Shown: positions 1-43,002 of the stretch, one piece after another | Numbering within the stretch: position 1 is the first letter of the stretch | Layout of the letters: every line of letters starts with the position of its first letter | Translations under genes and position numbers: made by a program | Notes under the pieces: model-generated | What the model saw: only the letters and a program-made list of their open reading frames with translations | What the model was told of the DNA's origin: nothing | Databases searched by the model: none | NCBI GenBank assembly: GCA_031379885.1 | Contig: JANNFN010000181.1 | Location: forward strand, 1,605 to 65,604 | DNA length: 64,000 nucleotides | Source: Methylotenera sp. | Lineage (GTDB): Bacteria > Pseudomonadota > Gammaproteobacteria > Burkholderiales > Methylophilaceae | Direction: 5' to 3'

Positions 1-138
1 ATCTTCTACTGCGTTAATGAAAAAGTAATCTTCTTTACTCATTTCATTTAGTTTGGCTACTTCTTCTTTAGCCACTTCGAAGTTAAGAAATGCATACTCT
101 AGTTCGTTTTGTTTGTTGATCACTTGGTAAATAGTCAT
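1..138 (-). CDS. small acidic protein, paralog P1 of an unannotated ~50-aa family (3' end runs off the window)
   Basis: Hand translation MTIYQVINKQNELEYAFLNFEVAKEEVAKLNEMSKEDYFFINAVED...; SD AAGGAG 6 nt before ATG; ungapped alignment with the ORFs at 1130, 6143 and 7083. Confidence 0.85.
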   Translation of the reverse strand, partial: MTIYQVINKQNELEYAFLNFEVAKEEVAKLNEMSKEDYFFINAVED

Positions 139-185
139 TTTGTCGCTCCTTAAATATTTAATTTAATTACCTACAGTAAATATTT

Positions 186-201
186 AGCAATTAGCAGACC
201 A
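186..201 (-). promoter_or_regulatory. putative sigma54 (-24/-12) promoter for P1
   Basis: Minus strand TGGTCTGCTAATTGCT (GG-N10-GC), 48 nt upstream of ATG; the adjacent TATTTAGCAA is identical to that upstream of P3. Confidence 0.55.
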
Positions 202-375
202 GCAATATGATTATTTAAATTTAGTGTTATATTTCAATAAGTTAAAATAAATTAATAGGTTTTTTGATGATAGTTTTGGGTGGGTTTTAGTTAAGTTTTG
301 TTCGAGAGTTCGACAGGACTGTGCAAATTTAGACAATTTGTACTAAATGCATACACAATTAACGTATATTCAGGC

Positions 376-412
376 TGCCCTGCAACCCAATATCCATGTG
401 GCTTGCAGGGCA
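376..412. repeat. 37-bp imperfect palindrome, copy 1 of a dispersed REP-like element; may also act as a terminator
   Basis: Reverse complement TGCCCTGCAAGCCACATGGATATTGGGTTGCAGGGCA matches 6559-6595 at 31/37 positions. Confidence 0.7.
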
Positions 413-468
413 GCCGTTTTTAGCTATTTAAACCCAAACGTGTTGTTTAAACTATTTGCGCTTGTGCA

Positions 469-885
469 TTAAGCTTTAGCTGCACTGAATAAGCGTGTAA
501 ATTCCATCTGATTTTTGCTAGAAGTGGAGCGGAATTTGGTTTTTAATAATTCTTGTGCGTATTCTTCATTGCCAATTTGGTGCTGCGTTAGTACCTCACC
601 CGCGCACAAATGTAGCTCTGCATGCACCTTACGCGCGGTTTCATATTCTGGTAGGTGACCATATAAATTTTTGCCTTCGTCATAAAGCCATTTGCCTATC
701 GCACATAAATTATCCTGTGATAGTTCCGTGATATCTAAATTCTCACGGCTCGTGCCATCCATCTCTTTTAGCAGTTTTTTCTTTAAAGCATGGTGCGTAT
801 CAAGTACGTATTTAAGATTAATGCCAGATAAAGCCTCTGGCTTTGGTTTGGTTACTTTTTTATCAAACCAATCTAATAATGCCAT
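469..885 (-). CDS. stand-alone CZB (chemoreceptor zinc-binding) domain protein
   Basis: 3His/1Cys pattern DTHH...LCAIGKWLY...VHAELH; start moved to ATG 885, which follows SD-like AAAGGA. Confidence 0.8.
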   Translation of the reverse strand: MALLDWFDKKVTKPKPEALSGINLKYVLDTHHALKKKLLKEMDGTSRENLDITELSQDNLCAIGKWLYDEGKNLYGHLPEYETARKVHAELHLCAGEVLTQHQIGNEEYAQELLKTKFRSTSSKNQMEFTRLFSAAKA

Positions 886-924
886 TTTAATTTCCTTTAA
901 CATGCTGAACTTTAGAAAGGTCAT

Positions 925-940
925 AGCAAAGGCTGTGCCA
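925..940 (-). promoter_or_regulatory. sigma54 promoter for the CZB gene
   Basis: Minus strand TGGCACAGCCTTTGCT, full match to TGGCAC-N5-TTGCW. Confidence 0.8.
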
Positions 941-1026
941 CGCGCGAATTAATTAGATAACTAATTGAATTTTAAAGATTAAATATTTATTTGTTGCTAA
1001 GAGCTGATGCTTAATAAAATTGAATG

Positions 1027-1043
1027 TGCACATATATGGTGCG
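1027..1043. promoter_or_regulatory. NtrC-like enhancer (UAS) candidate
   Basis: TGCACATATATGGTGCG, 14/17 to TGCACCAwwwTGGTGCA, ~90 bp upstream of the sigma54 site. Confidence 0.5.
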
Positions 1044-1129
1044 CGTGCACTGAGCCATGCTCAGATTATATTGGGATTAGCCCATTCCAGCTGTTCTTGC
1101 GTGGGTGAATTGCAGAACTAAAAGCTAGA

Positions 1130-1282
1130 TTAGTTAGCTTCTTTCGGTTCAACTTCTTCTACATGGTAAAAGTGTTTGTTATCCAACGCGCTTAAGTCTT
1201 GTGCGGCGCGCATAGCTTGCTCTATCTCTGCAAATTCGCAGTAGAGTTGGTTATCTTCATTTAATACTTGGTATATGTTCAT
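1130..1282 (-). CDS. 50-aa small protein, paralog P2
   Basis: MNIYQVLNEDNQLYCEFAEIEQAMRAAQDLSALDNKHFYHVEEVEPKEAN*; homologous to P1, P3 and P4. Confidence 0.85.
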   Translation of the reverse strand: MNIYQVLNEDNQLYCEFAEIEQAMRAAQDLSALDNKHFYHVEEVEPKEAN

Positions 1283-1319
1283 TTCACAGCCTTTTATGCA
1301 CTTTGCAGTGCTTAGTGCT

Positions 1320-1346
1320 ACATCGGCATGTTTTTTATAATCTTTA
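1320..1346 (-). promoter_or_regulatory. sigma28 (FliA)-type promoter for P2
   Basis: Minus strand TAAA-N15-GCCGATGT versus consensus TAAA-N15-GCCGATAA; 38 nt upstream of ATG. Confidence 0.75.
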
Positions 1347-1425
1347 GATAAAAAGCAGATTTATGGTGTAACCTTATTTAAAGCGGTTGATTAAAAAGTT
1401 AACGATTGAAAATGGGCACTAAAAA

Positions 1426-1608
1426 ATGATGAATAAAGAAACCAGCGATAGCGCAATCACCACGCTAACGCAGTTAGTTGAAAATACTTGCTTTTGTAAG
1501 CTGAGAGAAGCTTGTAGCGATAAAAATAGCAGTGAATGTATGCGACATAGAAATATTTATGCGGAATTTATGCAGCAAAAACGCGAAGAGCGTTCTCGCA
1601 AAGCCTAA
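1426..1608 (+). CDS. hypothetical 60-aa protein with four Cys
   Basis: ORF track; CFC...C...C cluster; no family recognised. Confidence 0.5.
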   Translation: MMNKETSDSAITTLTQLVENTCFCKLREACSDKNSSECMRHRNIYAEFMQQKREERSRKA

Positions 1609-1612
1609 CAAA

Positions 1613-1810
1613 TTAAGGGATACCAATGACTTTAAGGTATTCCTCCAGCGTGAGGGTTAGCTTTTCTATCGAGCTAGTGACTTCATCTAGATGCGTGTTT
1701 GAATCAAGATGCAGTTTCTCTAACAAGGCTTTGTGTTTTTCAATCGCTTCTGCATGCTCTTGAAACTTAGCGTTTTTTAAATCTTGTTTAGTCATTGCTG
1801 GTTTCTCCAT
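1613..1810 (-). CDS. hypothetical helical small protein
   Basis: ORF track; amphipathic helical composition; follows DUF3617 on the same strand. Confidence 0.55.
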   Translation of the reverse strand: MEKPAMTKQDLKNAKFQEHAEAIEKHKALLEKLHLDSNTHLDEVTSSIEKLTLTLEEYLKVIGIP

Positions 1811-1823
1811 AAGTAAGTGATCA

Positions 1824-2348
1824 CTATAACGGTTTTACCGTTCCACAGCTTGCATTAATCCACTTACCATTGATATCTGCCCGCTCGTTCACTGGGTTGC
1901 CTTGCGCCTCACCTTTGAAATTGGTTTGGCCAGAGAAACTTTCTGGGCTTGTAACGGCGCCTTCTGCGGTTCCATTGCCTTTCAGCTCTGCACTGTTACA
2001 AACAAAGTCCACTTTGTAGTTGTTACCGTTGCGGGTTGCATTTTGAGAAGTACAGCCTAATTCGGTTTGGTAAAAATTGGGTAGCGTTTTTTGATTGGCC
2101 ATTTCTTGCGTAATACAAGCATTGGATATGGCGGCGCCATTTTCAATTTGTGGCATATCTAGTCCGTAATCTTTGGCTAAATCTTTTATGTTTTTCATTT
2201 GATCTGGTGGTATATGCGGCGCTAATAGCAACAAATCGGATGTGGTTGTAATTTGCCATAACCCAGGTCGCATGTTGAGTTCTGCTGCGTTTGCAGCAGA
2301 GGCTAACAGTGAGAATAATAAAGTAACAACCATAAAGATTTTGCGCAT
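1824..2348 (-). CDS. DUF3617-family exported protein
   Basis: Signal peptide, MRPGLWQITT motif, Cys spacing CIT...C...C...C typical of DUF3617. Confidence 0.75.
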   Translation of the reverse strand: MRKIFMVVTLLFSLLASAANAAELNMRPGLWQITTTSDLLLLAPHIPPDQMKNIKDLAKDYGLDMPQIENGAAISNACITQEMANQKTLPNFYQTELGCTSQNATRNGNNYKVDFVCNSAELKGNGTAEGAVTSPESFSGQTNFKGEAQGNPVNERADINGKWINASCGTVKPL

Positions 2349-2827
2349 TGAAGCTCCTAGCAAATGTGTGACGTACTAATTTTTAGAGGGCGTTTTAGCC
2401 AGTTAAGTTCAGCAAGACTAAGTTTCGCACCATTGCTGTGCGCTTTGCTAGCACTTTGAGTTGTAATTTTTGAATACCAAAAGTGTAAATAATTCGGCTA
2501 TATGCCATCACTTACTTTTGCTTAAAAGTAAACTTTATTGTATGGCGTAAATTTGTAGCTTATCGCCTACTTATTATATTTAATAAACCAAACACACTAG
2601 AAACCATATGCGCCAAGTCTTATAAAGCCTTGTTCACAGCCATTTTACGGGCACCGAATAAATAATTTTTATTTATCATTGAGTGCGTTAACGCACAGAT
2701 ACCTTTCTATTCTTGCATTTAAATTGCAGCTGTCACTTGTAAAATATCTATCATAAGTTAATTTTTTACCTGAATTATCCGATATATAAGTAGGTTCTAA
2801 ATATTTGTTCAATAGCGCAGAACGACT

Positions 2828-2843
2828 TGGAACGGTAATTGCT
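2828..2843 (+). promoter_or_regulatory. putative sigma54 promoter for the trypsin-TPR protease cluster
   Basis: TGGAACGGTAATTGCT (GG-N10-GC); palindromes at 2683-2696 (GTGCGTTAACGCAC) and 2714-2728 (TGCATTTAAATTGCA) lie at enhancer distance. Confidence 0.6.
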
Positions 2844-2959
2844 TAATAGAATTACATAGTCGCATTTTTTGATTTAATTTTTAGTGTTAGTTTTAATTTT
2901 TTTGTGAGGTGTATCAAACTTAATATGTAGATTGGCGACAATCTAAATTGGAGGCCATC

Positions 2960-3985
2960 ATGACAAAGCTCTGCTTTACGTTTTATTCGGCTTTATTTTA
3001 TTTGTGTTTTGCAACTTCAACGTTGGCAGCGCCAACCGATGAACTGGTGCATCAACTCAATGCTCAAGTACTGCGTGTGCAGGTTGGGCTTGCAAATGGT
3101 AGCTACGGGCTTGGTTCTGCCGTGGTGATTGCAAAAGATCAAGTCGTTACTAATTGTCATGTTGTGGCTAATGCTAATAGTATTAATGTTGTTAACAACG
3201 GTGCGCCACTGGCTGTAACTGCCATCAAGCCAGATTGGCATCACGATTTATGTATTTTAAAAGTAGAAAACCTAGATGCGCCAGTTGCAAAAATTGGCTC
3301 GAGCAAAAATCTTAAGTACGAGCAATCTGTTTTTACCATCGGTTATCCCCATTTTCAGGCTGTGCCCAGTAGCACTTATGGCGTTGTAAAAGGCCTTTAC
3401 CCAATGGATGATAGCGTGATTATTCGCGCTACTAGCACTTTTGGGCTTGGTGCCAGCGGCGGCGGTGTGTTTGATGACGAAGGTAATTTGGTAGGGGTTA
3501 TTACGCTAAAAAGCCCAGGTAGCAATGCTTATTACTACAACATGCCGGTAGAGTGGGTGCAGGCGCTATTAAATAAGCCAGAACAGGCCGTTACCGCTAA
3601 AAGTGAACAACCTTTTTGGGCGGTATCATATGATAAATGGCCGTATTTCATGCAGGTTGTTCAACCATTTATCACCGAAAATTGGGATTCGTTATTACAA
3701 ATCGCGACTAAATGGACGGAGCAAGAGCCAAATACTTTGGAGTCTTGGTTCTACTTGGCAACGGCTGAATATGCTGCAAAGGATTTTGATCATGCAGAAG
3801 TGCATATGCAAAAAGTGGTGGCAATGAATCATCAGCATAGCCAAGCAATCTATTATTTAGGCTTGATGGCAGAAGCAAGCGGCAAGCATACTTTAGCTTT
3901 AACGAATGTTGCGCTGCTGAATAATTTAGATGAAACAGTCGCAACCCAACTTAAAGTTGCGATGGGAATGACAACAGCAGAGTAA
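2960..3985 (+). CDS. exported trypsin-like serine protease with C-terminal TPR (paralog 1)
   Basis: Catalytic triad TNCHV / HDLC / GASGG; TPR-like helices; signal peptide; SD GGAGG before ATG 2960. Confidence 0.85.
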   Translation: MTKLCFTFYSALFYLCFATSTLAAPTDELVHQLNAQVLRVQVGLANGSYGLGSAVVIAKDQVVTNCHVVANANSINVVNNGAPLAVTAIKPDWHHDLCILKVENLDAPVAKIGSSKNLKYEQSVFTIGYPHFQAVPSSTYGVVKGLYPMDDSVIIRATSTFGLGASGGGVFDDEGNLVGVITLKSPGSNAYYYNMPVEWVQALLNKPEQAVTAKSEQPFWAVSYDKWPYFMQVVQPFITENWDSLLQIATKWTEQEPNTLESWFYLATAEYAAKDFDHAEVHMQKVVAMNHQHSQAIYYLGLMAEASGKHTLALTNVALLNNLDETVATQLKVAMGMTTAE

Positions 3986-4053
3986 CTATGCGCACATTCG
4001 GAACTTAAGTTATTTGACTTACTCATACGGTAGTCAATAATTTAGGAACGACT

Positions 4054-4587
4054 ATGCGTGTACTAGCTGGAGTAATTTTAATGTTGTTATCCCCACTTTC
4101 TGCTTTAGCCGACGAATGCCCCGCGCTACTTAATCATCAGTTTAAAACTTTGCAGGGTGAGTCTATTAACCTGTGCGATTATCGCGATAAGCCGATTTTA
4201 GTTGTGAATACCGCCAGCAAATGTGGATTTACCCCGCAATTTGAAAAACTGGAAGGCATGTACAGCCAATATAAAGACAAAGGCTTACTGGTGATTGGAT
4301 TTCCTTCCAACGATTTTCGCCAAGAGTTAAAAAACGATTCCGAAATTGGTAGTTTCTGTAAACTCACGTATGGCGTGAAGTTCCCCATGGTGACAAAAAG
4401 CTCAGTCAGCGGCCCAAACACTAATCCATTTTATAAAGAGTTAATTGCTGCAAGCGGACAGGCGCCAAAATGGAACTTTTATAAATATGTGATTACCCCA
4501 GGCGGCAAATCAGTGCAGAGTTTTGCTAGCACTACGCAACCAGATGACCCTGCTATTATGAAATTGATTGAGCCGTATCTTAAATAA
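4054..4587 (+). CDS. exported Cys-type glutathione peroxidase family protein
   Basis: VNTASKCGFTPQ, FPSNDF and KWNFYKY motifs; signal peptide. Confidence 0.9.
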   Translation: MRVLAGVILMLLSPLSALADECPALLNHQFKTLQGESINLCDYRDKPILVVNTASKCGFTPQFEKLEGMYSQYKDKGLLVIGFPSNDFRQELKNDSEIGSFCKLTYGVKFPMVTKSSVSGPNTNPFYKELIAASGQAPKWNFYKYVITPGGKSVQSFASTTQPDDPAIMKLIEPYLK

Positions 4588-4618
4588 ACTAGAAACACAA
4601 AATAGAAATGTGAATGCG

Positions 4619-5677
4619 ATGAATATAAATAAGTTTTCTTTGTGCTTTTTGTTGCTGAATACGATTGCAAGTGCTGGCGCCCAGGCTACCGTTTTGGTGG
4701 AGCCAACGGATGAGTTTTTACATAACTTAAAACAATCGATGGTAAAAATTGGTACTACCACTAAATCTGGTGGGCATGGTTTTGGTACTGGCATTGCAAT
4801 TAGTAAAGATCAGGTCGTAACTAACTGTCATGTGGTAAGTAACGCTAACGGGATTTCTATCAGCAAGTGGGGTACGGAATATCCTGTGGATTCTTTACAA
4901 GCAGATTGGAAACACGATTTGTGTATTCTTAAGGTGGAATATGCAGATTTGAAGCCAGTGACGATGGGCGACTCTTCAAAACTCAGTTATGAGCAGCCTA
5001 TTATCTCAATCTCTATGCCTAACGATTCACCTGCGCCTTATGTAGCGTTGAGCACCATTAAAGCGCTTTATCCATTAGACTATGTAGAAGTGATTCGTAC
5101 CCAAGCGGCATTTTCAATAGGCGCGAGCGGTAGCCCAATATTTGACTACGATGGCAAATTAATAGGCGTAAGTACGTTTAAAAGTCCAGGCAAAAAAGCC
5201 TATTTTTATAATATGCCAGTTAATTTGGTGAAAGCAGTCATGCAAACTCCGCTGGTGAAGTTAAATTCACAACATGATTTGCCATTTTGGGATGCGCCCG
5301 ATGAAGCCCGACCATTTTTTATGCAGATTGTGTTGCCCTTTCAAAATAATCGCTGGCAAGATGTTCAAAAAGTGGCCAGTCATTGGGTAGAAAAAGAGCC
5401 TAGCAATGCAGAAGCTTGGTATTACATGGGTGAAGCTGCGCAACATCTGGGGAACGGGCAAGCAGCAGCAATGCATTATCAAAAAGCATTAAGTTTGCAC
5501 CCAAACCACCCTGCCACATTGCAAGCTACTGCGTTACTGGCGCAAAAAGAGGGTAAGCAAGCAGAGACAAACAAAATTCGTTTAACACTAAAAGAAATTA
5601 ACCCAGAGCTTTTGGAAGATTTGGACAGCGCCGCGCAGGCGGAGTGCCTAGCATCCAGTAAAAGCGCTGAATGTTAA
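4619..5677 (+). CDS. exported trypsin-like serine protease with TPR (paralog 2)
   Basis: TNCHV / HDLC / GASGS triad; TPR region EAWYYMG...ALSLHPNH. Confidence 0.85.
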   Translation: MNINKFSLCFLLLNTIASAGAQATVLVEPTDEFLHNLKQSMVKIGTTTKSGGHGFGTGIAISKDQVVTNCHVVSNANGISISKWGTEYPVDSLQADWKHDLCILKVEYADLKPVTMGDSSKLSYEQPIISISMPNDSPAPYVALSTIKALYPLDYVEVIRTQAAFSIGASGSPIFDYDGKLIGVSTFKSPGKKAYFYNMPVNLVKAVMQTPLVKLNSQHDLPFWDAPDEARPFFMQIVLPFQNNRWQDVQKVASHWVEKEPSNAEAWYYMGEAAQHLGNGQAAAMHYQKALSLHPNHPATLQATALLAQKEGKQAETNKIRLTLKEINPELLEDLDSAAQAECLASSKSAEC

Positions 5678-5686
5678 GAACTCCAC

Positions 5687-6106
5687 ATGAAACGGCTGCT
5701 AACATTTGGCTTACCAATATTGGCAATTATTACCATGGCTATATATCGGTATGAGGATATGGGCGCTGAAAATCTATCGCAACAAATTTCGAAGCTAGAA
5801 AAAATTGGTGATGAATGTGATCTGATTGCAGAAAAGGCTGCGATGCACTTGCCCGAAGCGTTGCCATTTCAAAAATTAGAAAAGGCTGGAAGGCGAGCAA
5901 GGGTGCTAGAAGATTGTATGCATGATAGAGCTTACTTAGAAAACCCTGCTTGGACTAAGTTTGCAAAGCCAGAGGCACAAAAAAATGCGCAAACTCAGCA
6001 CATATCTTACGATGAGGCATATGAAGCCTTAAGGCGCATGAGCATGCTAGCGTTTAAGACGACTAAAGGTGAGCCGTTATATTGGGTTCAGGCTAAAGCT
6101 AATTAG
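5687..6106 (+). CDS. hypothetical membrane-anchored protein
   Basis: N-terminal hydrophobic segment, two Cys; 9 nt after the protease stop. Confidence 0.65.
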   Translation: MKRLLTFGLPILAIITMAIYRYEDMGAENLSQQISKLEKIGDECDLIAEKAAMHLPEALPFQKLEKAGRRARVLEDCMHDRAYLENPAWTKFAKPEAQKNAQTQHISYDEAYEALRRMSMLAFKTTKGEPLYWVQAKAN

Positions 6107-6142
6107 TTAAAGCGGCTGGTGCAATATTAAACCAGAAATACA

Positions 6143-6292
6143 CTACTTATCTTCGAACTCTACTGCCTCAACGTAAAAATAATGATCTTCTTGGCTCTCG
6201 TTGAGCATTTCAACTTCCTGTGTAGCATTTTGTAAGGTGAGAAATGCATAAATCGGACGATTTTGCTCATTCATTATTTGATAAATGGTCAT
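6143..6292 (-). CDS. 49-aa small protein, paralog P3
   Basis: MTIYQIMNEQNRPIYAFLTLQNATQEVEMLNESQEDHYFYVEAVEFEDK*; SD AAGGAG; closest to P1. Confidence 0.85.
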   Translation of the reverse strand: MTIYQIMNEQNRPIYAFLTLQNATQEVEMLNESQEDHYFYVEAVEFEDK

Positions 6293-6345
6293 ATTGCGCT
6301 CCTTAAATCTTCATTAATAATCTCGTACTATACTTAAACTTATTT

Positions 6346-6361
6346 AGCAAAAATCAAGCCA
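6346..6361 (-). promoter_or_regulatory. putative sigma54 promoter for P3
   Basis: Minus strand TGGCTTGATTTTTGCT (GG-N10-GC), 54 nt upstream of ATG. Confidence 0.65.
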
Positions 6362-6468
6362 AAAAATTCAATTGATTCAATAACTTATTTAAAATATATA
6401 ACTCAATTATTATTCATTGGGTTACTTATTACATTTAAGGTAAATTCTAGAAATGTACCAGGTACTTA

Positions 6469-6485
6469 TGCATCAAATTTGTGCA
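6469..6485. promoter_or_regulatory. NtrC-like enhancer candidate for P3
   Basis: TGCATCAAATTTGTGCA, 15/17 to TGCACCAwwwTGGTGCA, ~110 bp upstream of the sigma54 site. Confidence 0.55.
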
Positions 6486-6558
6486 GGCTTGCGAATATTG
6501 CAATCAATTGATGACATTTCTATGTATTTTTAGGCGATATAAAAACTTAATATATAGA

Positions 6559-6595
6559 TGCCTTGTAAGCCTCATGGATACTGCCTTGCAGGGCA
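6559..6595. repeat. 37-bp REP-like palindrome, copy 2
   Basis: TGCCTTGTAAGCCTCATGGATACTGCCTTGCAGGGCA, 5 nt after the stop of the 6601 gene. Confidence 0.7.
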
Positions 6596-6600
6596 TCCAT

Positions 6601-6993
6601 TTAGATAGCCTTAATCTCACTTTTAATCACGTTGATAACACCGGCAAAAATCATGATGTATTCCACAATTAAAAGCATAAAAAGTTTATCTTCTGGGGCG
6701 CCTGTAAGCGTGGTTAATGTCAGCGAGAGTGCATTGATGACAACGCTAATTAAAATAATGAGACCTATTAATTTGTTTCTTAAGCCAAAAAGATAAAATG
6801 GGGCTATAAAACTCAAGCCAAAAAGTGTTTGAACATCAATGCCACCGTTGATGTTTTTATTGGCGAGATTGAGCGCAATATACAAGATAATCAGTAAGCA
6901 AGCGGCAGGTAGCTTTGTTGGCATGCCTGCGCCATTATGTTTTAATCCAAGCGCAAGCCAAGCATGAGTCAATATTGCAGCAATCAGTTTCAT
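6601..6993 (-). CDS. hypothetical integral membrane protein (~4 TM)
   Basis: Hydrophobic segments; start moved to ATG 6993 after SD GGAGG. Confidence 0.7.
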   Translation of the reverse strand: MKLIAAILTHAWLALGLKHNGAGMPTKLPAACLLIILYIALNLANKNINGGIDVQTLFGLSFIAPFYLFGLRNKLIGLIILISVVINALSLTLTTLTGAPEDKLFMLLIVEYIMIFAGVINVIKSEIKAI

Positions 6994-7082
6994 TTCAGCC
7001 TCCGAATACACTTGTAAAGCGCATTTAGCGCGCATTAATCTACACAAATACCTTGAGGATGCTTATTCTGAAATCTTACAAA

Positions 7083-7232
7083 TTAGGCCAATTCCAGTGC
7101 CAGCTCTTCTACATGGTAGTAGTGTTCATCATCCCAAACGGTAAGATCTAGCGCGCAATCCAAGGCGTGATCTAAATCTGAATATTCACGATACAGTTTG
7201 TTTTCTTCATTAAGTACTTGGTAGATTTTCAT
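7083..7232 (-). CDS. 49-aa small protein, paralog P4
   Basis: MKIYQVLNEENKLYREYSDLDHALDCALDLTVWDDEHYYHVEELALELA*; SD GGAGG; closest to P2. Confidence 0.85.
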   Translation of the reverse strand: MKIYQVLNEENKLYREYSDLDHALDCALDLTVWDDEHYYHVEELALELA

Positions 7233-7271
7233 CTGACACCTCCTTAATAATCTTAAGTAGCGTTAAGTATT

Positions 7272-7298
7272 ACATCGGCATGTTTGAAATAAACTTTA
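7272..7298 (-). promoter_or_regulatory. sigma28 (FliA)-type promoter for P4
   Basis: Minus strand TAAAGTTT-N11-GCCGATGT, 40 nt upstream of ATG; same motif as upstream of P2. Confidence 0.8.
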
Positions 7299-7593
7299 GA
7301 TTAAAAGCAAAAATGATGCTTATTTATTAGTTTGGTTTATATGGCTTTCAACTTGTGTAAGTAGGGTGTAACGATAAGCTGACATTATTTTTAATTCATA
7401 TTTGTTGCTACATTCAGACAATGTTCACAACTCACAATATATAAACGCCCTATGTTATTGACGCAAAGAGGCATTTTGTGCGAGTATGAAAAACCTAGGC
7501 AATGTACGGACAGTGCGTATATGGAATTATTTGTCTTCGCCCAAGCGCGACTGAATGAATGATGATCGTTTACAAGGAGAACAGAACTTGAAA

Positions 7594-7683
7594 ATGACGA
7601 TACAACAGTATATTGAGGGGTTTAATCGCCCTGTGTGCCTGAGAGGTTATCAGGCCTTGGAATTTAAGCTTGAGTCTGCTTAA
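7594..7683 (+). CDS. possible 29-aa ORF directly upstream of the AsmA-like gene
   Basis: MTIQQYIEGFNRPVCLRGYQALEFKLESA*; AAGGAG upstream, spaced best for an in-frame TTG at 7588. Confidence 0.35.
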   Translation: MTIQQYIEGFNRPVCLRGYQALEFKLESA

Positions 7684-7701
7684 AGCTTAAACCACATAAA
7701 G

Positions 7702-10700
7702 ATGGATTTATCAGTCGTTTACAGTAAAACTGCTAAAGGGTTGCGCGCGCGCGCTTCTCTCCTCGGCGGCTTGCCCTCACATTTGATGAAGGTGCTTACG
7801 CACGTTGATGGCATATCAAAAGCCGAATCAATTCTCATTAAATTTGACGAAATTACCGAACACAAATTGATTGTAGCTTTGAATCTGCTTGAAAGGGAAG
7901 GCTACATCAAGCCAGTCATGGTGACTGTGCCTAGTGAAAATGATTGGGCACCAGCCACAATTTTCGCTCCCATGGAAGTTGAGGAGTTTGAAAATGTAGA
8001 AGAAGTTGAAGTCAAAGCCAAAGAAAACGCACAGCTACAAGCTGAGCGTAAAGCGCAGGCAGAAGAAGAAGCACGTCAGCAGGCCGAAATTAAGGCAAGA
8101 GAGAAAGAAGAACAGGCACTCGAAAAAGCGAAAATTAAAGAAAAGCTAAGAGCCGAAGCGAAAGTGAAGGCGCAGTTAGAGGCTGATCGCATCACTCGCG
8201 AAAAAGAAGAGGCGCGAAAAAAAGCGGAGGCAGTAGCTCATGCTAAAGCCGAAGAAGAGGCGCGAATCCAAGCAGAACAAAAAGCTAAAGCTGCAGAAGA
8301 AGCGCGACTGAAGGCTGAGGCAGAAGCAAAGGCTAAAGCAGAAGAAAAAGAGCATGTGCGCCGTGAAATAGAGCGTATCTCACGCGAAGCAGAAGCAGAG
8401 CATAAAAAAGCTGAAGACGAAGCGCATGCCAAGGCAGCTCTTAAAGCGCGTGAGGAACTAGAACAGGCGCATGCCAAAGCGATGGAAGAAGCACGATTAC
8501 AGGCAGAACGCGAAGCTAAAGAGATTGAGGAAGCGCGTTTGCAGGCCGAACTTAAGGCGCGAGACGAAGCAGAAAAGGCACATGCCAAGGCAGAAGCGGA
8601 AGCAAAAGAGAATGCGCGTCGTGAATTAGAACGCATTGGTCGAGAAGCTGAAGAAGCGCAAAGAAAAGCAGAGGCCGAAGCTATCGCTAAGGCAGAAGCA
8701 GAAGCGAAACTAGAAGCCGAACGCAAAGCTAAGGCAGAAGAGAAGGCGCGACTGAAGGCGGAAGCTGAAGAAAAAGCTGAAGCAGCAGAACAAGCAAAAA
8801 TAGAAGAGAAGGAAAAGGCAAGACTTGAAATAGCACGTATTGTTCGTGAAGCAGAGGAAGCACGCAAAAAATCTGAAGCTAAGGCTAAAGAAACTCGTTT
8901 GGAAACTAAGCGCAAAGCGAAAGCAGAGCAAGAGGCGCGCCTGAAGGTAGAGCGCAAGCCAAAAGCTGAGGTAAAGCAAGCAATTACAAAGACAGCGCTA
9001 GAGGAAGAAGCTAGCGTAGATGCAAATTTAAATGCTCGCCTTGAAATGGAGCGCTTTGCTCTTGAGGCTGAAGAGGGGCGAAAAAAATCTAAAGCTGAAG
9101 TCCGCGCCAAAGCCGAAGAGGCAGAAAGTAAAGCACAGGCAGAAGCAGCGCTGATTCGTGCTAAAGCTGAAGAACAGGCTAAAGCAGATGCGAAAGAGAC
9201 TTCGCGCTTAGAAATGGAACGTATCAGCCGTGAAGCAGATGAAGTGCGGAAAAAACAAAAAACTGAAGCCCACACTAACATTGAAGTAGCACTAATCAGT
9301 GAAACCAAAGGGCGATCATGGGAAGAAATTGAAGAAGAGGAAGAAAGAGCCTTTAAAGAAGAAGAAAGAGCTTTCGAAGAGGAAGGGCATGCCACAAAGG
9401 AAGATGATGTAGAGCGTGTGATTGAGAAAATAACCCGGCAAGAAGCAGAAAGGCTGGAGCGTGAGGAAATTAAACTCCAAGCGAAGGAAGAGGCCGAGAC
9501 TCTTGCCAAAGTTCAAGCCAAAATATTACTAAGAAGCATCAACTACAGGAAGTGGCTTTCAAGAGCTGGCAAGGCTATTAAGCCAATATTGGTTTATCTG
9601 CCGCTAGTGATTATATTGCTAATTGGGGTGCTGCATCTGATTAACCTAAGTATGTTGGTTGCACCTATCGAAAAGCTTGCCTCCGAGAGTGTAGGTGAGC
9701 AAGTAACCATCGAAAAAGTTTATGCATCGCTATGGCCTCAACCGCATCTTGAGTTAGGGAATGTGAGGATAGGTGTCAACTCTAGCTTAAAAATTGAGAC
9801 AGTAAATATTTCCCCAGTTACTTCAACGCTATTCCAAGAAGTCAAAATGTTGAACTCGCTTGAGCTCGAAGGAATGAAATTCACTCAGGACAATTTTGGG
9901 CAGCCTTTGCAATGGATAAATAGTTTAGGTAAGGCTGAGCATTTGAAGGTTGATCAGATAAATTTGAAAAAAGCTGTTATCCAGATTCGTGATCTCGAGT
10001 TTGGCACTTTTAGCGGTAAAGTCGAACTTACTGAAGCACGAGAACTTAAAAATATCGATTTGATTAGTGCAGAGCAAACACTTTCAGTTCAGGTAACGCC
10101 ACAAGGTAGCAATTTTGATGTTATGTTGACTGGTACAGATTGGCACTTGCCGGTAAATCCAAAATTTGTGTTTAATGAACTTAAAGCTAAGGGAACATTA
10201 AGTCAAAACCAGATTATTTTCAGCCAAATCGAGGGCAGTATTTATGGAGGAACAATCAAGGGCAAGGCGGCCGTCGATTGGTCAAGTGAATGGTCGACTG
10301 CAGGCAATTTTGAGCTATTTAATGCCACATTGCCGCAAATGCTCAACGCCTTTGGCAGCAGCGCTTCTATTGATGGTAAGCTTGCACTGACTGGGATTTT
10401 TTCTTGCAGATCACCACAAGCTATTAATTTGGTAGATTCTCCAGAAATTACAGCAAATTTCGAGCTGCATGATGGCAAAATAAATGATATTGATTTGGCG
10501 CGAGCCGTGCTATTTAAAGGTAGTCAGTCACTGGTTGGTGGCGCAACGCATTTTGACAAATTTACTGGCGGCTTACAGCTTAAGAGTGGATATTATCAGT
10601 ATAAGCAGCTAGTGCTGGAAACTAATCAATTTCACGCTAAGGGAAATTTGGATATTCTTCCGAATCAGGAGGTTTCTGGAAAGATTAGTGCCAATCTAAC

Positions 10701-10770
10701 AGCACAATCACGTCGCTTATATGCTAACTTTAATTTAGCTGGCAAGGCTGGGGACATTAAGCGGCAGTAA
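7702..10770 (+). CDS. large membrane protein: small N-terminal domain, Ala/Glu/Lys-rich coiled coil, TM helix, AsmA-like C-terminal region
   Basis: Long TolA-like EAKAKAE repeats; one hydrophobic segment (ILVYLPLVIILLIGVLHLI); C-terminus with G.I.GIDL...T.F..L.G pattern typical of AsmA-like proteins. Confidence 0.75.
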   Translation: MDLSVVYSKTAKGLRARASLLGGLPSHLMKVLTHVDGISKAESILIKFDEITEHKLIVALNLLEREGYIKPVMVTVPSENDWAPATIFAPMEVEEFENVEEVEVKAKENAQLQAERKAQAEEEARQQAEIKAREKEEQALEKAKIKEKLRAEAKVKAQLEADRITREKEEARKKAEAVAHAKAEEEARIQAEQKAKAAEEARLKAEAEAKAKAEEKEHVRREIERISREAEAEHKKAEDEAHAKAALKAREELEQAHAKAMEEARLQAEREAKEIEEARLQAELKARDEAEKAHAKAEAEAKENARRELERIGREAEEAQRKAEAEAIAKAEAEAKLEAERKAKAEEKARLKAEAEEKAEAAEQAKIEEKEKARLEIARIVREAEEARKKSEAKAKETRLETKRKAKAEQEARLKVERKPKAEVKQAITKTALEEEASVDANLNARLEMERFALEAEEGRKKSKAEVRAKAEEAESKAQAEAALIRAKAEEQAKADAKETSRLEMERISREADEVRKKQKTEAHTNIEVALISETKGRSWEEIEEEEERAFKEEERAFEEEGHATKEDDVERVIEKITRQEAERLEREEIKLQAKEEAETLAKVQAKILLRSINYRKWLSRAGKAIKPILVYLPLVIILLIGVLHLINLSMLVAPIEKLASESVGEQVTIEKVYASLWPQPHLELGNVRIGVNSSLKIETVNISPVTSTLFQEVKMLNSLELEGMKFTQDNFGQPLQWINSLGKAEHLKVDQINLKKAVIQIRDLEFGTFSGKVELTEARELKNIDLISAEQTLSVQVTPQGSNFDVMLTGTDWHLPVNPKFVFNELKAKGTLSQNQIIFSQIEGSIYGGTIKGKAAVDWSSEWSTAGNFELFNATLPQMLNAFGSSASIDGKLALTGIFSCRSPQAINLVDSPEITANFELHDGKINDIDLARAVLFKGSQSLVGGATHFDKFTGGLQLKSGYYQYKQLVLETNQFHAKGNLDILPNQEVSGKISANLTAQSRRLYANFNLAGKAGDIKRQ

Positions 10771-41055: not shown

Positions 41056-42582
41056 TTACATATGATAAGCACGTTCGCCATGCTCTGTAGTATCTAAACC
41101 TTCGCGTTCAACTTCTTCACTTACGCGTAGACCAATTAATACATCTACAATTTTGTAAGCAAGGAAAGCCACAACGCCAGACCATACTAGTGTTGTACCT
41201 ACACCCCACGCTTGAGCAGTCATTTGCGCAGCCATATCATAAGGTGCAACCGCGTTTGCAACATAGTCGTAAACACCTGTTCCACCTAGAGCTGGATTCA
41301 CTAAAATACCCGTACTTAGCGCACCAAAAATACCACCAATGCAGTGCACACCAAATACGTCTAGTGAGTCATCGTAACCGATCATAGACTTAACTTTGGT
41401 TACAAAAGTGAAGCAAAGTGGCGAAACAAGCAAGCCTAGTACGATAGCACCCATAGGGCCGATGTAACCACAAGCCGGTGTAACAGCAACTAAACCAGCA
41501 ATGGCACCAGAAGCTGCACCTAACATGGAAGGCTTACCTTTGAAGAACCATTCAGTAAACATCCAAGCTGTGGCAGCAGCACAAGTTGCAAGTAAAGTAT
41601 TCGCGAATACCAAAGCTGCAAAACCAGTCGCTTCAAGGTTAGAACCTACGTTAAAACCAAACCAACCCACCCATAGTAAAGCAGCACCAACCATTGTAAG
41701 CGTTACGCTGTGTGGTGCCATTGCTTCTTTACCAAAGCCTATACGTTTGCCTAATACTAATGCACCTACTAAGCCCGCAATACCTGCATTAATATGCACT
41801 ACAGTGCCACCAGCAAAGTCTAATGCACCTTTTTGCCAAATGAAACCGGCTGTTGCAGAAGCGGCTGTTGCAGCATCAGCAGTAGTATAAGCATCTGGAC
41901 CTGCCCAGTACCAAACCATATGTGCGATTGGCAAATATGAAAACGTAAACCATAAAATCATAAAAAACAGAATGGCAGAAAATTTCATACGCTCGGCAAA
42001 AGCACCCACAATCAAAGCAGGAGTAATCACCGCAAAGGTAAGTTGGAAGCACATATAAATATATTCAGGGATGACAACGCCCTTGCTGAAAGTAGCAACA
42101 TTTGAATCAGGCGTAATTCCGCTTAAAAATGCACGACCAAATCCACCAAAAAACGCATTACCTTCGGTAAAGGCAATGCTGTAGCCATACAGCGCCCATA
42201 AAACCCCTAATACGCAGGTGATCATAAATGTTTGCATTAATATAGAGAGCATATTTTTTTGACGTGCCATACCACCATAAAATAAACCCAAGCCCGGTAC
42301 ACACATCATTAACACCAGTACTGTAGCAACGATCATCCAAGCGGTATCACCCTTATTTGGAACAGGCGCTGGAGCTGCGGCTGCCTCAGCAGGTGTAGCT
42401 TCTGCTGGCGCTGCGGTGGTAACAGCATCATCTACTGCCGTCGCTGCTTCTGCAACTGCTTCAACTGTCGCAGTTGCTGCTTCAGTAGTCGCGGTTGCCA
42501 TATCATCAGCAAAACTTAAATTACTAGTAAACCCAAAACCAACTAGGGCAACTAACGATAATACAGATAAAAATTTCTTCAT
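41056..42582 (-). CDS. amtB: ammonium transporter
   Basis: DFAGGTVVH, WFGFN and DDSLDVFGVH motifs. Confidence 0.97.
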   Translation of the reverse strand: MKKFLSVLSLVALVGFGFTSNLSFADDMATATTEAATATVEAVAEAATAVDDAVTTAAPAEATPAEAAAAPAPVPNKGDTAWMIVATVLVLMMCVPGLGLFYGGMARQKNMLSILMQTFMITCVLGVLWALYGYSIAFTEGNAFFGGFGRAFLSGITPDSNVATFSKGVVIPEYIYMCFQLTFAVITPALIVGAFAERMKFSAILFFMILWFTFSYLPIAHMVWYWAGPDAYTTADAATAASATAGFIWQKGALDFAGGTVVHINAGIAGLVGALVLGKRIGFGKEAMAPHSVTLTMVGAALLWVGWFGFNVGSNLEATGFAALVFANTLLATCAAATAWMFTEWFFKGKPSMLGAASGAIAGLVAVTPACGYIGPMGAIVLGLLVSPLCFTFVTKVKSMIGYDDSLDVFGVHCIGGIFGALSTGILVNPALGGTGVYDYVANAVAPYDMAAQMTAQAWGVGTTLVWSGVVAFLAYKIVDVLIGLRVSEEVEREGLDTTEHGERAYHM

Positions 42583-42593
42583 GTCATTACCCC

Positions 42594-42944
<351 letters not shown>

Positions 42945-42986: not shown

Positions 42987-43002
42987 AGCAAAGCACGTGC
43001 CA
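42987..43002 (-). promoter_or_regulatory. sigma54 promoter of glnK-amtB
   Basis: Minus strand TGGCACGTGCTTTGCT, full consensus; NtrC-like site TGCACTAATTCGGGGCA at 43213-43229. Confidence 0.88.

What the first reader, a model, noticed from the sequence alone, without database searches (positions are those of the whole stretch)
186..7298. The four paralogs split between two sigma factors: P2/P4 have sigma28 promoters, P1/P3 have sigma54 promoters
Seen: P2 and P4 both have TAAA-N15-GCCGATGT 38-40 nt upstream (1320-1346, 7272-7298). P1 and P3 both have GG-N10-GC boxes 48-54 nt upstream (186-201, 6346-6361) with the same adjacent TATTTAGCAA, and P3 has a 15/17 NtrC-like site at 6469-6485. The promoter class matches the protein subgroup. 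Established: TAAA-N15-GCCGATAA is the FliA (late flagellar/chemotaxis) consensus and TGGCAC-N5-TTGC the RpoN consensus. Inference: one small domain has been duplicated and placed under both a motility regulon and a sigma54 (possibly nitrogen) regulon, which would make it a candidate small-protein regulatory system linking the two.
Basis: partly seen in the sequence, partly recalled or inferred. Interest (0 to 1): 0.8.

Follow-up and report, generated by a model that had tools for sequence, protein, structure and literature searches.

The report
Small paralogs under two sigma factors
Four copies of an uncharacterised 49-residue protein, found only in methylotrophs of the family Methylophilaceae, form two lineages: one has flagellar (FliA/sigma-28) promoters and the other has sigma-54 promoters that look nitrogen-controlled, a wiring conserved across genera, though the protein's function is unknown.

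Summary
P2 and P4 carry TAAAG-N14-GCCGATGT 37 and 39 nt before the ATG. P1 and P3 carry TGG-N9-TTGCTAAATA 47 and 53 nt before it. Each pattern occurs twice in the window, against 0.01-0.03 expected by chance.

The pattern holds in relatives. The 49-aa proteins (no Pfam family, no PDB fold match, Methylophilaceae only) split 99/93 into two clades.
- Clade A (P1, P3): 20 of 21 genes keep a sigma-54 box and none has a sigma-28 box.
- Clade B (P2, P4): 12 of 33 keep the sigma-28 box. Another 32 of 80 named Methylotenera/Methylophilus loci also have it.

Nine non-flagellate genomes keep sigma-54 copies but have no intact sigma-28 copy.

P3 and 11 other clade A promoters carry an NtrC-type dyad about 124 nt upstream. 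In this genome the same dyad precedes amtB and glnK. P1 has only a half-site.

The flagellar cluster has no sigma-54 promoters, and FlhC is present. The sigma-54 arm is therefore not a flagellar tier.

P4 forms a conserved pair with a 4-TM protein that is found only in flagellate genomes.

The dual-regulon reading is supported. A functional link between the two regulons is untested, and no expression data could be obtained.

The parts
1..138 (-). P1, clade A small protein. It is 49 aa in full; the last 3 codons and the stop lie just left of the window, at genome C66:1593-1742.
   Evidence: ORF with an AAGGAG ribosome-binding site. It has orthologues in three genomes of the same genus.
186..201 (-). 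Sigma-54 promoter of P1: TGGTCTGCTAATTGCT (GG-N10-GC).
   Evidence: Orthologues keep TGGTCT/TGGCCT-N5-T(T/A)TGCT at the same distance.
309..325 (-). Conserved half-dyad TGCACAGTCCTGTCGAA, 124 nt upstream of the P1 -24 box. Possible activator site, not a full NtrC dyad.
   Evidence: It matches 7 of 10 positions. The block ATATTTGCACAGTnnTGnCGAA is conserved in 3-4 genomes of the same genus.
469..885 (-). Stand-alone CZB (chemoreceptor zinc-binding) domain protein, lying between P1 and P2.
   Evidence: Pfam PF13682, E 3.4e-9.
925..940 (-). Near-consensus sigma-54 promoter of the CZB gene: TGGCACAGCCTTTGCT.
   Evidence: PWM score 16.9.
1027..1043 (.). NtrC-type dyad TGCACATATATGGTGCG, 103 nt upstream of the CZB sigma-54 box.
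1130..1282 (-). P2, a divergent clade B small protein (50 aa).
1320..1346 (-). Sigma-28 (FliA) promoter of P2: TAAAG-N14-GCCGATGT.
2828..2843 (+). Sigma-54-like box TGGAACGGTAATTGCT upstream of the operon encoding trypsin-like protease/TPR, glutathione peroxidase, a second protease and orf139 (2960-6106).
   Evidence: score 15.2. TGGAAT-N5-TTTGCT is conserved before the orthologous operon in Methylophilus loci.
6143..6292 (-). P3, clade A small protein (49 aa).
6346..6361 (-). Sigma-54 promoter of P3: TGGCTTGATTTTTGCT.
6469..6485 (.). NtrC-type upstream activator dyad of P3: TGCATCAAATTTGTGCA, 124 nt from the -24 TGG.
6601..6993 (-). memB, a 130-aa predicted 4-5-helix membrane protein. It starts 89 nt downstream of P4 and is probably co-transcribed with it.
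   Evidence: The P4-like-then-mem order is conserved in at least 12 Methylotenera loci.
7083..7232 (-). P4, clade B small protein (49 aa).
   Evidence: AlphaFold2 gives a beta-beta-alpha-beta model with mean pLDDT 90.9.
7272..7298 (-). Sigma-28 (FliA) promoter of P4(-memB): TAAAGTTT-N11-GCCGATGT.

Best explanation
The window comes from a Methylotenera-like genome (family Methylophilaceae). It carries four paralogues of a family-restricted, stand-alone, cytoplasmic, acidic 49-aa protein with a beta-beta-alpha-beta fold. The family has two ancient clades with different transcriptional wiring.

Clade B (P2, P4):
- It is transcribed by FliA/sigma-28 RNA polymerase as part of the late flagellar regulon of an FlhDC-to-FliA hierarchy.
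- P4 is probably co-transcribed with a small membrane protein (memB). That protein is itself confined to flagellate genomes and preceded by sigma-28-type boxes elsewhere.

Clade A (P1, P3):
- It is transcribed by sigma-54 RNA polymerase from -24/-12 promoters that need an enhancer-binding activator.
- For P3 the activator is most likely NtrC, binding a dyad 124 nt upstream, so P3 would be induced on nitrogen limitation.
- For P1 the activator is unresolved.

Shown here: the motifs, their conservation, their clade specificity and the phyletic patterns.
Inferred: actual use of the promoters, NtrC as the activator, and P4-memB co-transcription.
Speculative: that the small protein acts by binding a partner such as the mem protein.
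For: Motifs and chance:
- Motif positions and chance expectations.
- The genome encodes RpoN and FliA.
- The same sigma-28 box precedes flgM. One-mismatch versions precede fliC and flgA.

Clade specificity:
- The tree splits at 99/93 support. Clade A: 20 of 21 genes with a sigma-54 box, 0 with a sigma-28 box. Clade B: 12 sigma-28, 2 sigma-54-like, 19 neither. Fisher p = 1.7e-7.
- An independent named sample gave 32 of 80 clade B loci with TAAAG-N14-GCCGATgt, 39-47 nt from the ATG in most.

Phyletic pattern:
- FliA is present in 77 of 151 family genomes.
- Nine genomes lack both FliA and FlhA. Two of them are in the same genus. Seven of the nine keep clade A sigma-54 copies, and none has an intact sigma-28 copy.

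Activator site:
- An NtrC-type dyad (at least 8 of 10 positions) lies 105-140 nt upstream in 12 of 22 clade A promoters. There are 0 such hits at the 3696 other upstream positions.
- This genome has only 18 non-coding dyads matching 9 of 10 or better. Nine of them sit upstream of sigma-54 boxes, covering amtB (two dyads), glnK, a NasT-like regulator and P3.
- A bona fide NtrC is encoded next to glnA.

Not a flagellar sigma-54 tier:
- No sigma-54 box scores above 10 before any flagellar operon. FlhC is present.

Real genes:
- Synonymous changes greatly exceed non-synonymous ones. There are 272 homologue clusters. Mean pLDDT is 90.9.

mem pairing and distribution.
Against: - There are no transcript or TSS data.
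- The P1 and P3 sigma-54 boxes are only mid-ranking by PWM.
- P1 lacks a full dyad.
- Ten of 22 clade A promoters have no dyad matching at least 8 of 10 positions in the expected window.
- Other enhancer-binding proteins could recognise the dyad. The genome has six besides NtrC.
- 19 of 33 clade B genes lack a sigma-28 box, so the wiring is lineage-dependent.
- Related promoters share ancestry, so the counts are not independent events.
Confidence: 0.7

Rival explanations
1. The sigma-54 promoters are real, but the activator is not NtrC and the signal is not nitrogen. One of the other response-regulator enhancer-binding proteins drives P1, P3 or both, responding for example to an envelope, metal or redox signal. 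The neighbouring sigma-54-linked CZB gene and the protease/glutathione-peroxidase operon would be co-regulated with them.
For: - The genome has seven enhancer-binding proteins, four of them uncharacterised response-regulator types.
- P1-type promoters have only a half-site with a different right arm.
- The neighbouring protease operon has a conserved sigma-54 box but no NtrC dyad.
- glnA itself shows no dyad matching at least 8 of 10 positions within 260 nt.
Against: - The P3-type dyad matches the classical NtrC consensus.
- In this genome that dyad is otherwise concentrated in front of amtB, glnK and a NasT-like gene.
- The neighbouring CZB promoter, unlike the protease operon, has the dyad.
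- The dyad's position is fixed across genera.
Confidence: 0.3
2. All four genes are flagellar. The sigma-54 copies would belong to an early or middle flagellar tier (FleQ/FleR-type), as with flagellin paralogues in Helicobacter or Vibrio, so there is no second regulon.
For: - The flagellar cluster encodes FlhF and a FleN/FlhG-like protein. Such proteins often accompany sigma-54-dependent hierarchies (own knowledge).
- Both clades sit in one locus.
Against: - No sigma-54 box scores above 10 before any of 21 flagellar genes or operons.
- FlhC is present, and no FleQ-like activator was found.
- Clade A sigma-54 copies persist in 7 of the 9 genomes that lack both FliA and FlhA.
- The upstream dyad is NtrC-type.
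Confidence: 0.05
3. The boxes are chance matches or inherited relics, and the genes are transcribed by the housekeeping sigma factor.
For: - The region is AT-rich, and sigma-70-like hexamers are as common as in shuffles.
- Some clade B lineages seem to use extended -10-like promoters instead.
- There are no expression data.
Against: - Chance expectation is 0.01-0.03 per window.
- The boxes are retained at a fixed distance across 13 genera while the flanks have diverged beyond alignment.
- The boxes are clade-exclusive.
- The sigma-28 boxes decay or disappear where FliA is absent.
Confidence: 0.05

Closest known systems
Flagellin paralogues split between sigma-28 and sigma-54 (Helicobacter pylori and Campylobacter jejuni flaA/flaB; Vibrio cholerae flaA versus flaB-E). 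From own knowledge, not tested here.
   Same: Paralogous genes of one family are partitioned between a FliA promoter and an RpoN promoter.
   Different: In those cases both promoters belong to the flagellar hierarchy and the proteins are flagellins. Here the sigma-54 arm is not flagellar: no sigma-54 boxes precede flagellar operons, an FlhDC-type system is present, and the copies are retained in non-flagellates. It carries an NtrC-type enhancer, and the protein is an unknown 49-aa cytoplasmic domain.
Class 3 (FliA-dependent) flagellar regulon genes of enteric bacteria, including small or poorly understood members such as flgM, flxA and ycgR (own knowledge).
   Same: A TAAAGTTT-N11-GCCGATAA-type promoter with a short leader. 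The same box occurs at flgM in this genome.
   Different: There is no sequence or fold relationship to any of them. The -10 element ends in GT rather than AA in nearly all orthologues.
NtrC/sigma-54 nitrogen regulon promoters (glnK-amtB, glnAp2, nas genes).
   Same: A -24/-12 promoter with a TGCAC-N7-GTGCA dyad about 70-230 nt upstream. The same architecture occurs at amtB, glnK and a NasT-like gene in this genome.
   Different: The P3 type has a single dyad at a fixed ~124 nt rather than tandem sites. P1 has only a half-site. The product has no known role in nitrogen metabolism.

Membership tests
FliA (sigma-28) dependent promoter | -35 TAAA(G) and -10 GCCGATAA elements spaced as TAAA-N15-GCCGAT | tested here: met
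   P2 and P4 match TAAAG-N14-GCCGAT exactly. P4 also matches TAAAGTTT.
FliA (sigma-28) dependent promoter | The sigma factor is encoded in the genome and the same box is used at canonical targets | tested here: met
   fliA lies on C190. The box is exact at flgM and has one mismatch at fliC and flgA.
FliA (sigma-28) dependent promoter | Conserved in orthologues and lost where FliA is lost | tested here: met
   12 of 33 clade B genes and 32 of 80 named loci keep the box. Nine genomes lacking FliA and FlhA have no intact boxed copy. 19 of 33 clade B genes use another promoter.
FliA (sigma-28) dependent promoter | TSS about 7-10 nt downstream of the -10 element and loss of transcript in a fliA mutant | not testable with these tools
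RpoN (sigma-54) dependent promoter | GG-N10-GC within TGGCAC-N5-TTGCW | tested here: met
   P1 TGGTCT-N5-TTGCT scores 13.0. P3 TGGCTT-N5-TTGCT scores 14.6. For comparison, glnK scores 18.6.
RpoN (sigma-54) dependent promoter | rpoN and enhancer-binding activators are encoded | tested here: met
   RpoN is present. Seven enhancer-binding proteins are present.
RpoN (sigma-54) dependent promoter | Upstream activator site about 80-150 nt from the promoter | tested here: inconclusive
   P3 has a 9-of-10 dyad at 124 nt. P1 has only a conserved half-site.
RpoN (sigma-54) dependent promoter | Conservation in orthologues | tested here: met
   20 of 21 clade A genes keep the box, against 2 of 33 clade B genes.
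NtrC regulon | TGCACC-N5-GGTGCA dyad that also marks canonical nitrogen genes of the same genome | tested here: met
   Met for P3 (and CZB), together with amtB, glnK and a NasT-like gene. Not met for P1 (7 of 10 positions).
NtrC regulon | Induction on nitrogen limitation and dependence on ntrC | not testable with these tools
   No expression data could be obtained.
Sigma-54-dependent flagellar tier (FleQ/FlrA type) | Sigma-54 promoters before flagellar operons, a FleQ-like master regulator, and co-occurrence with flagella | tested here: not met
   The best sigma-54 score before any flagellar gene is 10.0. FlhC is present. No FleQ-like protein was found. Clade A copies occur in non-flagellates.
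Any described protein family or fold | Significant match in Pfam, to a solved structure, or to a domain of a larger protein | tested here: not met
   Pfam gave nothing. The best Foldseek hit against PDB had E 0.54. A profile search of 1.84 billion representatives gave 43 hits; all but two marginal long proteins (E ~5e-4) are stand-alone proteins of 35-68 aa. Every name given by a source is 'hypothetical protein'.

The most novel reading that the evidence does not exclude
The two clades are alternative versions of one small cytoplasmic binding module that act on a common partner. That partner could be the co-encoded 4-TM 'mem' protein or a motility or chemosensory component. Under this reading, completion of the flagellum (FliA) and nitrogen starvation (NtrC/sigma-54) converge on the same cellular output. 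This would be a small-protein switch coupling nitrogen status to motility behaviour in methylotrophs. In this genome the whole two-gene module (small protein plus mem) appears once behind each sigma factor: P4-memB behind sigma-28 and P1-memA behind sigma-54.
Probability: 0.12. Interest if true: 0.75.

Novelty: new member of a known kind. Interest (0 to 1): 0.45.

Why it matters
- It adds an unannotated, lineage-restricted small-protein family to the predicted FliA and NtrC/sigma-54 regulons of Methylophilaceae. These are abundant freshwater and sediment methylotrophs whose flagellar genes are among their most highly and differentially expressed functions in situ (PMC3728764).
- It is a clean example of regulatory subfunctionalisation of paralogues between two alternative sigma factors. 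Here the sigma-54 arm lies outside the flagellar hierarchy.
- It gives a testable entry point: promoters, candidate activator site, a candidate membrane partner, and cultured strains carrying the genes.
- The mechanism of transcription is textbook and the protein's role is unknown, so the immediate significance is moderate.

Tried and rejected
- Pfam on the four proteins and their neighbours gave nothing for the small proteins.
- Foldseek against PDB with a confident model gave no hit below E 0.5.
- An exhaustive profile search looking for fusions to larger proteins found none.
- AlphaFold2 of the mem protein gave mean pLDDT 55, too poor to use for a fold search.
- I tested whether the neighbouring trypsin-like protease/TPR gene shares the small protein's distribution. 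It does not: it is present in 139 of 151 genomes.
- Rfam on 1-8000 gave no matches.
- Earlier findings of the scan gave nothing.
- Two literature searches found nothing on this family.
- The first labelling of sigma-28 boxes on the tree had a script error. It was redone.
- A search for an internal sigma-28 promoter or terminator between P4 and memB, and between P1 and memA, found neither.

Full report
**What is there**

The left 7.3 kb of the window holds four small ORFs on the minus strand:
- P1, <1-138
- P2, 1130-1282
- P3, 6143-6292
- P4, 7083-7232

All encode 49-50 aa proteins that begin M-x-I-Y-Q-V/I and sit behind good Shine-Dalgarno sequences. P1 runs 9 nt plus its stop codon off the left edge. 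In the genome it is complete, at C66:1593-1742. These four are the only copies in the 2.35-Mb, 194-contig assembly.

**Check of the observation**

- P2: TAAAGATTATAAAAAACATGCCGATGT at 1346-1320 (-), 37 nt before the ATG.
- P4: TAAAGTTTATTTCAAACATGCCGATGT at 7298-7272 (-), 39 nt before the ATG. This matches the enteric FliA consensus TAAAGTTT-N11-GCCGATAA except for the last two bases.
- P1: TGGTCTGCTAATTGCT at 201-186 (-).
- P3: TGGCTTGATTTTTGCT at 6361-6346 (-).

The P1 and P3 boxes have the obligatory GG-N10-GC spacing and a TTGCT -12 element. Both are followed by the same AAATA, and they lie 47 and 53 nt before the ATG.

Chance expectations:
- TAAAG-N14-GCCGAT occurs twice in the window against 0.03 expected.
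- TGGY-N7-TTGCTAAATA occurs twice against 0.01 expected.
- Genome-wide, only five exact TAAAG-N14-GCCGAT boxes lie in non-coding DNA. They are P2, P4, flgM, one upstream of flhDC, and one other.
- The sigma-54 boxes are mid-ranking on their own. A rough PWM built from remembered consensus frequencies gives P3 14.6 and P1 13.0, against 18.6 for glnK. There are 117 non-coding hits at 11.5 or above.

**The genome can use both promoter types**

It encodes RpoN and FliA. It also encodes seven sigma-54 activators, one of which is a bona fide NtrC scoring above the NCBIfam cut-off and lying beside glnA.

**The protein family**

- The proteins have no Pfam family.
- A profile search found 272 clusters at 90% identity. 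All are 'hypothetical protein', and the only organism names are Methylophilus and Methylophilaceae.
- A scan of one genome per species returned only Methylophilaceae: Methylotenera, Methylophilus and unnamed members. The closest relatives of P4 are Methylotenera MAGs.
- An exhaustive profile search of 1.84 billion representatives gave 43 hits. All but two are stand-alone proteins of 35-68 aa, so the domain is not fused to anything informative. The two exceptions are marginal matches to long proteins (E about 5e-4), probably spurious.
- AlphaFold2 on a 48-sequence alignment gives a confident beta-beta-alpha-beta mini-domain, with mean pLDDT 90.9. The best Foldseek match in PDB has E 0.54.
- The genes are under purifying selection. 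Within close groups, synonymous differences (10-14 per gene) far exceed non-synonymous ones (1-3.4).

**Promoter class tracks protein clade across genera**

In 151 genomes of the same family, 36 carry the family, often as clustered copies. I collected 54 intact genes with their upstream DNA.

A maximum-likelihood tree splits them, with 99/93 support, into two clades.
- Clade A contains P1 and P3 and has the signature ...LN-x-S...HYFFVE.
- Clade B contains P2 and P4 and has the signature ...T-x-W...HYYHVEEL.

| Clade | Genes | Sigma-54 box (25-95 nt before the ATG) | Sigma-28 box | Neither |
|---|---|---|---|---|
| A | 21 | 20 | 0 | 1 (a mutated box) |
| B | 33 | 2 (both from one genome) | 12 | 19 |

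The sigma-54 pattern scored was TGG-N8-(T/A)TGC. The sigma-28 pattern was TAAAG-N13-15-GCCGAT with at most one mismatch. Fisher p is 1.7e-7.

An independent sample of 80 named clade B loci gave 32 with TAAAG-N14-GCCGATgt, in most of them 39-47 nt from the ATG.

The flanks are not alignable between genera, yet the boxes persist. This is what selection on function predicts.

The clade B genes without a box fall in two groups:
- Methylophilus (the MSMYQ/MTMYQ group)
- an 'LDYALH' group

Both appear to use other promoters, some of them extended -10-like. The wiring is therefore lineage-dependent, not universal.

**Phyletic evidence for FliA dependence**

FliA is present in 77 of the 151 genomes. 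Ten carrier genomes scored FliA-negative. One of these (G006, 88% complete) has FlhA and is therefore flagellate. The other nine lack both proteins.

Of those nine non-flagellates, seven keep clade A sigma-54 copies. Two of the seven, G057 and G145, are in the same genus as the window and have exactly a P1-like and a P3-like gene. None of the nine has an intact sigma-28-boxed copy. What remains of clade B in them is boxless, frameshifted or startless, or carries a decayed box such as GCCGAA.

**The sigma-54 arm is not a flagellar tier**

- The flagellar cluster on C190 has no sigma-54 box scoring above 10 before any of 21 genes or operons. Sigma-28 boxes precede flgM, fliC, flgA and flgK.
- FlhC is encoded, and no FleQ-like activator was seen.

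This points to an FlhDC-to-FliA hierarchy.

**The activator**

Anchoring 22 clade A promoters on the -24 TGG shows the following.
- 12 have a match of at least 8 of 10 positions to TGCAC-N7-GTGCA, the NtrC dyad, at 105-140 nt upstream. Most lie at 122-125 nt.
- No match of that quality occurs at any of the 3696 other positions in the same upstream regions.
- P3's site at 6469-6485 matches 9 of 10 positions and lies at 124 nt.

In this genome only 18 dyads matching 9 of 10 or better lie in non-coding DNA. Nine of them sit 60-260 nt upstream of a sigma-54 box. Two precede amtB, and the other seven precede:
- glnK
- a NasT-like response regulator
- two small ORFs
- a weak sigma-54-like box on C122
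- the CZB gene between P1 and P2
- P3

NtrC is therefore the best candidate for P3. The four P1-type promoters, all within one genus, instead share ATATTTGCACAGTnnTGnCGAA at the same distance. This is a half-site, so P1's activator is open.

**Surroundings**

The locus is rich in alternative-sigma promoters.
- The stand-alone CZB-domain gene (469-885) has a near-consensus sigma-54 promoter at 925-940 and an NtrC dyad at 1027-1043.
- The plus-strand operon for a trypsin-like protease/TPR protein, glutathione peroxidase, a second protease and orf139 has a sigma-54-like box at 2828-2843. That box is conserved as TGGAAT-N5-TTTGCT in Methylophilus.
- The small genes are syntenic with these genes and with a DUF3617 lipoprotein gene across genera. 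The protease family is almost universal, however, and so says nothing about co-distribution.

A more telling neighbour is a 130-aa predicted 4-5-helix membrane protein.
- memB (6601-6993) starts 89 nt after P4, with no terminator or internal promoter between them.
- The order 'sigma-28 box, P4-like gene, mem' recurs in at least 12 Methylotenera loci with gaps of 24-136 nt.
- The mem family is Methylophilaceae-only.
- It occurs in 13 of 151 genomes, all of them FliA-positive and all carrying the small-protein family.
- Where mem stands alone, it is preceded by TAAA-N15-GCCG(T/A)(T/A)A-type boxes, the same -10 variant seen at flgA in this genome.
- A paralogue, memA, follows P1 just outside the window.

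In this genome, then, a small-protein-plus-mem pair sits behind each sigma factor.

**How it most likely works**

Clade B genes are late flagellar (FliA) genes. P4-memB is one such operon.

Clade A genes are sigma-54 genes activated from a site about 124 nt upstream, by NtrC in the case of P3. They would therefore be expressed on nitrogen limitation, independently of flagella.

The protein is probably a small cytoplasmic binding module. The mem protein is a candidate partner, but this is inference only.

Retention of clade A alone in non-flagellates argues that the two lineages can work separately.

**Comparison with known systems**

The nearest precedent, from my own knowledge, is the split of flagellin paralogues between sigma-28 and sigma-54 in Helicobacter, Campylobacter and Vibrio. 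There both arms are flagellar. Here the sigma-54 arm is not.

The promoters themselves are ordinary members of the FliA and RpoN/NtrC classes. The protein family is undescribed.

**Limits**

- Counts across orthologues are not independent events.
- The sigma-54 PWM rests on remembered frequencies.
- Activator identity and operon structure are inferred.

**Verdict**

This is a new member of known kinds and of moderate interest.

Noticed in passing
window 925-940 (-) and 1027-1043: The stand-alone CZB (chemoreceptor zinc-binding) domain gene at 469-885 has a near-consensus sigma-54 promoter (TGGCACAGCCTTTGCT) and an NtrC-type dyad 103 nt upstream. It is therefore a predicted nitrogen-regulon member.
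   Followed up: partly
window 2828-2843 (+): A sigma-54-like box (TGGAACGGTAATTGCT) lies before the trypsin-like protease/TPR, glutathione peroxidase, protease and orf139 operon. It is conserved as TGGAAT-N5-TTTGCT in Methylophilus orthologues, and no NtrC dyad accompanies it.
   Followed up: partly
window 6601-6993 (-); genome C66:1038-1427 (-): A Methylophilaceae-only 130-aa multi-helix membrane protein family (memB, memA) is present in 13 of 151 family genomes. All 13 are flagellate and all carry the small-protein family. Solo copies are preceded by TAAA-N15-GCCG(T/A)(T/A)A boxes.
   Followed up: partly
window 375-417 and about 6561-6600: Two look-alike long inverted repeats (…CCTGCAA…TTGCAGGGCA…) lie just upstream of the P1 and P3 enhancer regions. 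Similar hairpins occur at the same place in relatives. They may be terminators of the preceding genes or a REP-like element.
   Followed up: no
genome C185:27542 (-), upstream of FlhC at C185:26248-26769: A perfect sigma-28 box (TAAAGTTTTATAAAGTGCTGCCGATAA) lies several hundred bases upstream of the flhDC region, which suggests FliA feedback on the master operon.
   Followed up: no
loci L047, L048, L051, L142-L149: Further, more divergent subfamilies of the small protein (MNIYELLKEENQKFWDF… and …VYELLDEEDQAYNDF…) lie next to DUF3617 lipoprotein genes. The second group carries TAAAGATTG…GCCGATgt boxes.
   Followed up: partly
window 7702-10770 (+): A 1022-aa protein has a long Glu/Lys/Ala-rich repeat region and a C-terminal membrane-associated domain. 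It is divergently placed from P4, and this arrangement is conserved in Methylotenera loci.
   Followed up: no
window 41056-42932 (-), promoter at 42987-43002 (-): A glnK-amtB operon has a consensus sigma-54 promoter (TGGCACGTGCTTTGCT) and an NtrC-type dyad 227 nt upstream. It was used here as an internal yardstick.
   Followed up: partly
upstream of clade A genes in loci L011-L053 and window 6362-6460: Conserved AT-rich blocks lie between the dyad and the -24 box: TTAATTGAATTTT immediately 5' of the TGG, a TACTTTAA block about 70-80 nt upstream and an AATGATAA block about 45-55 nt upstream. They may be an IHF or DNA-bending site.
   Followed up: no
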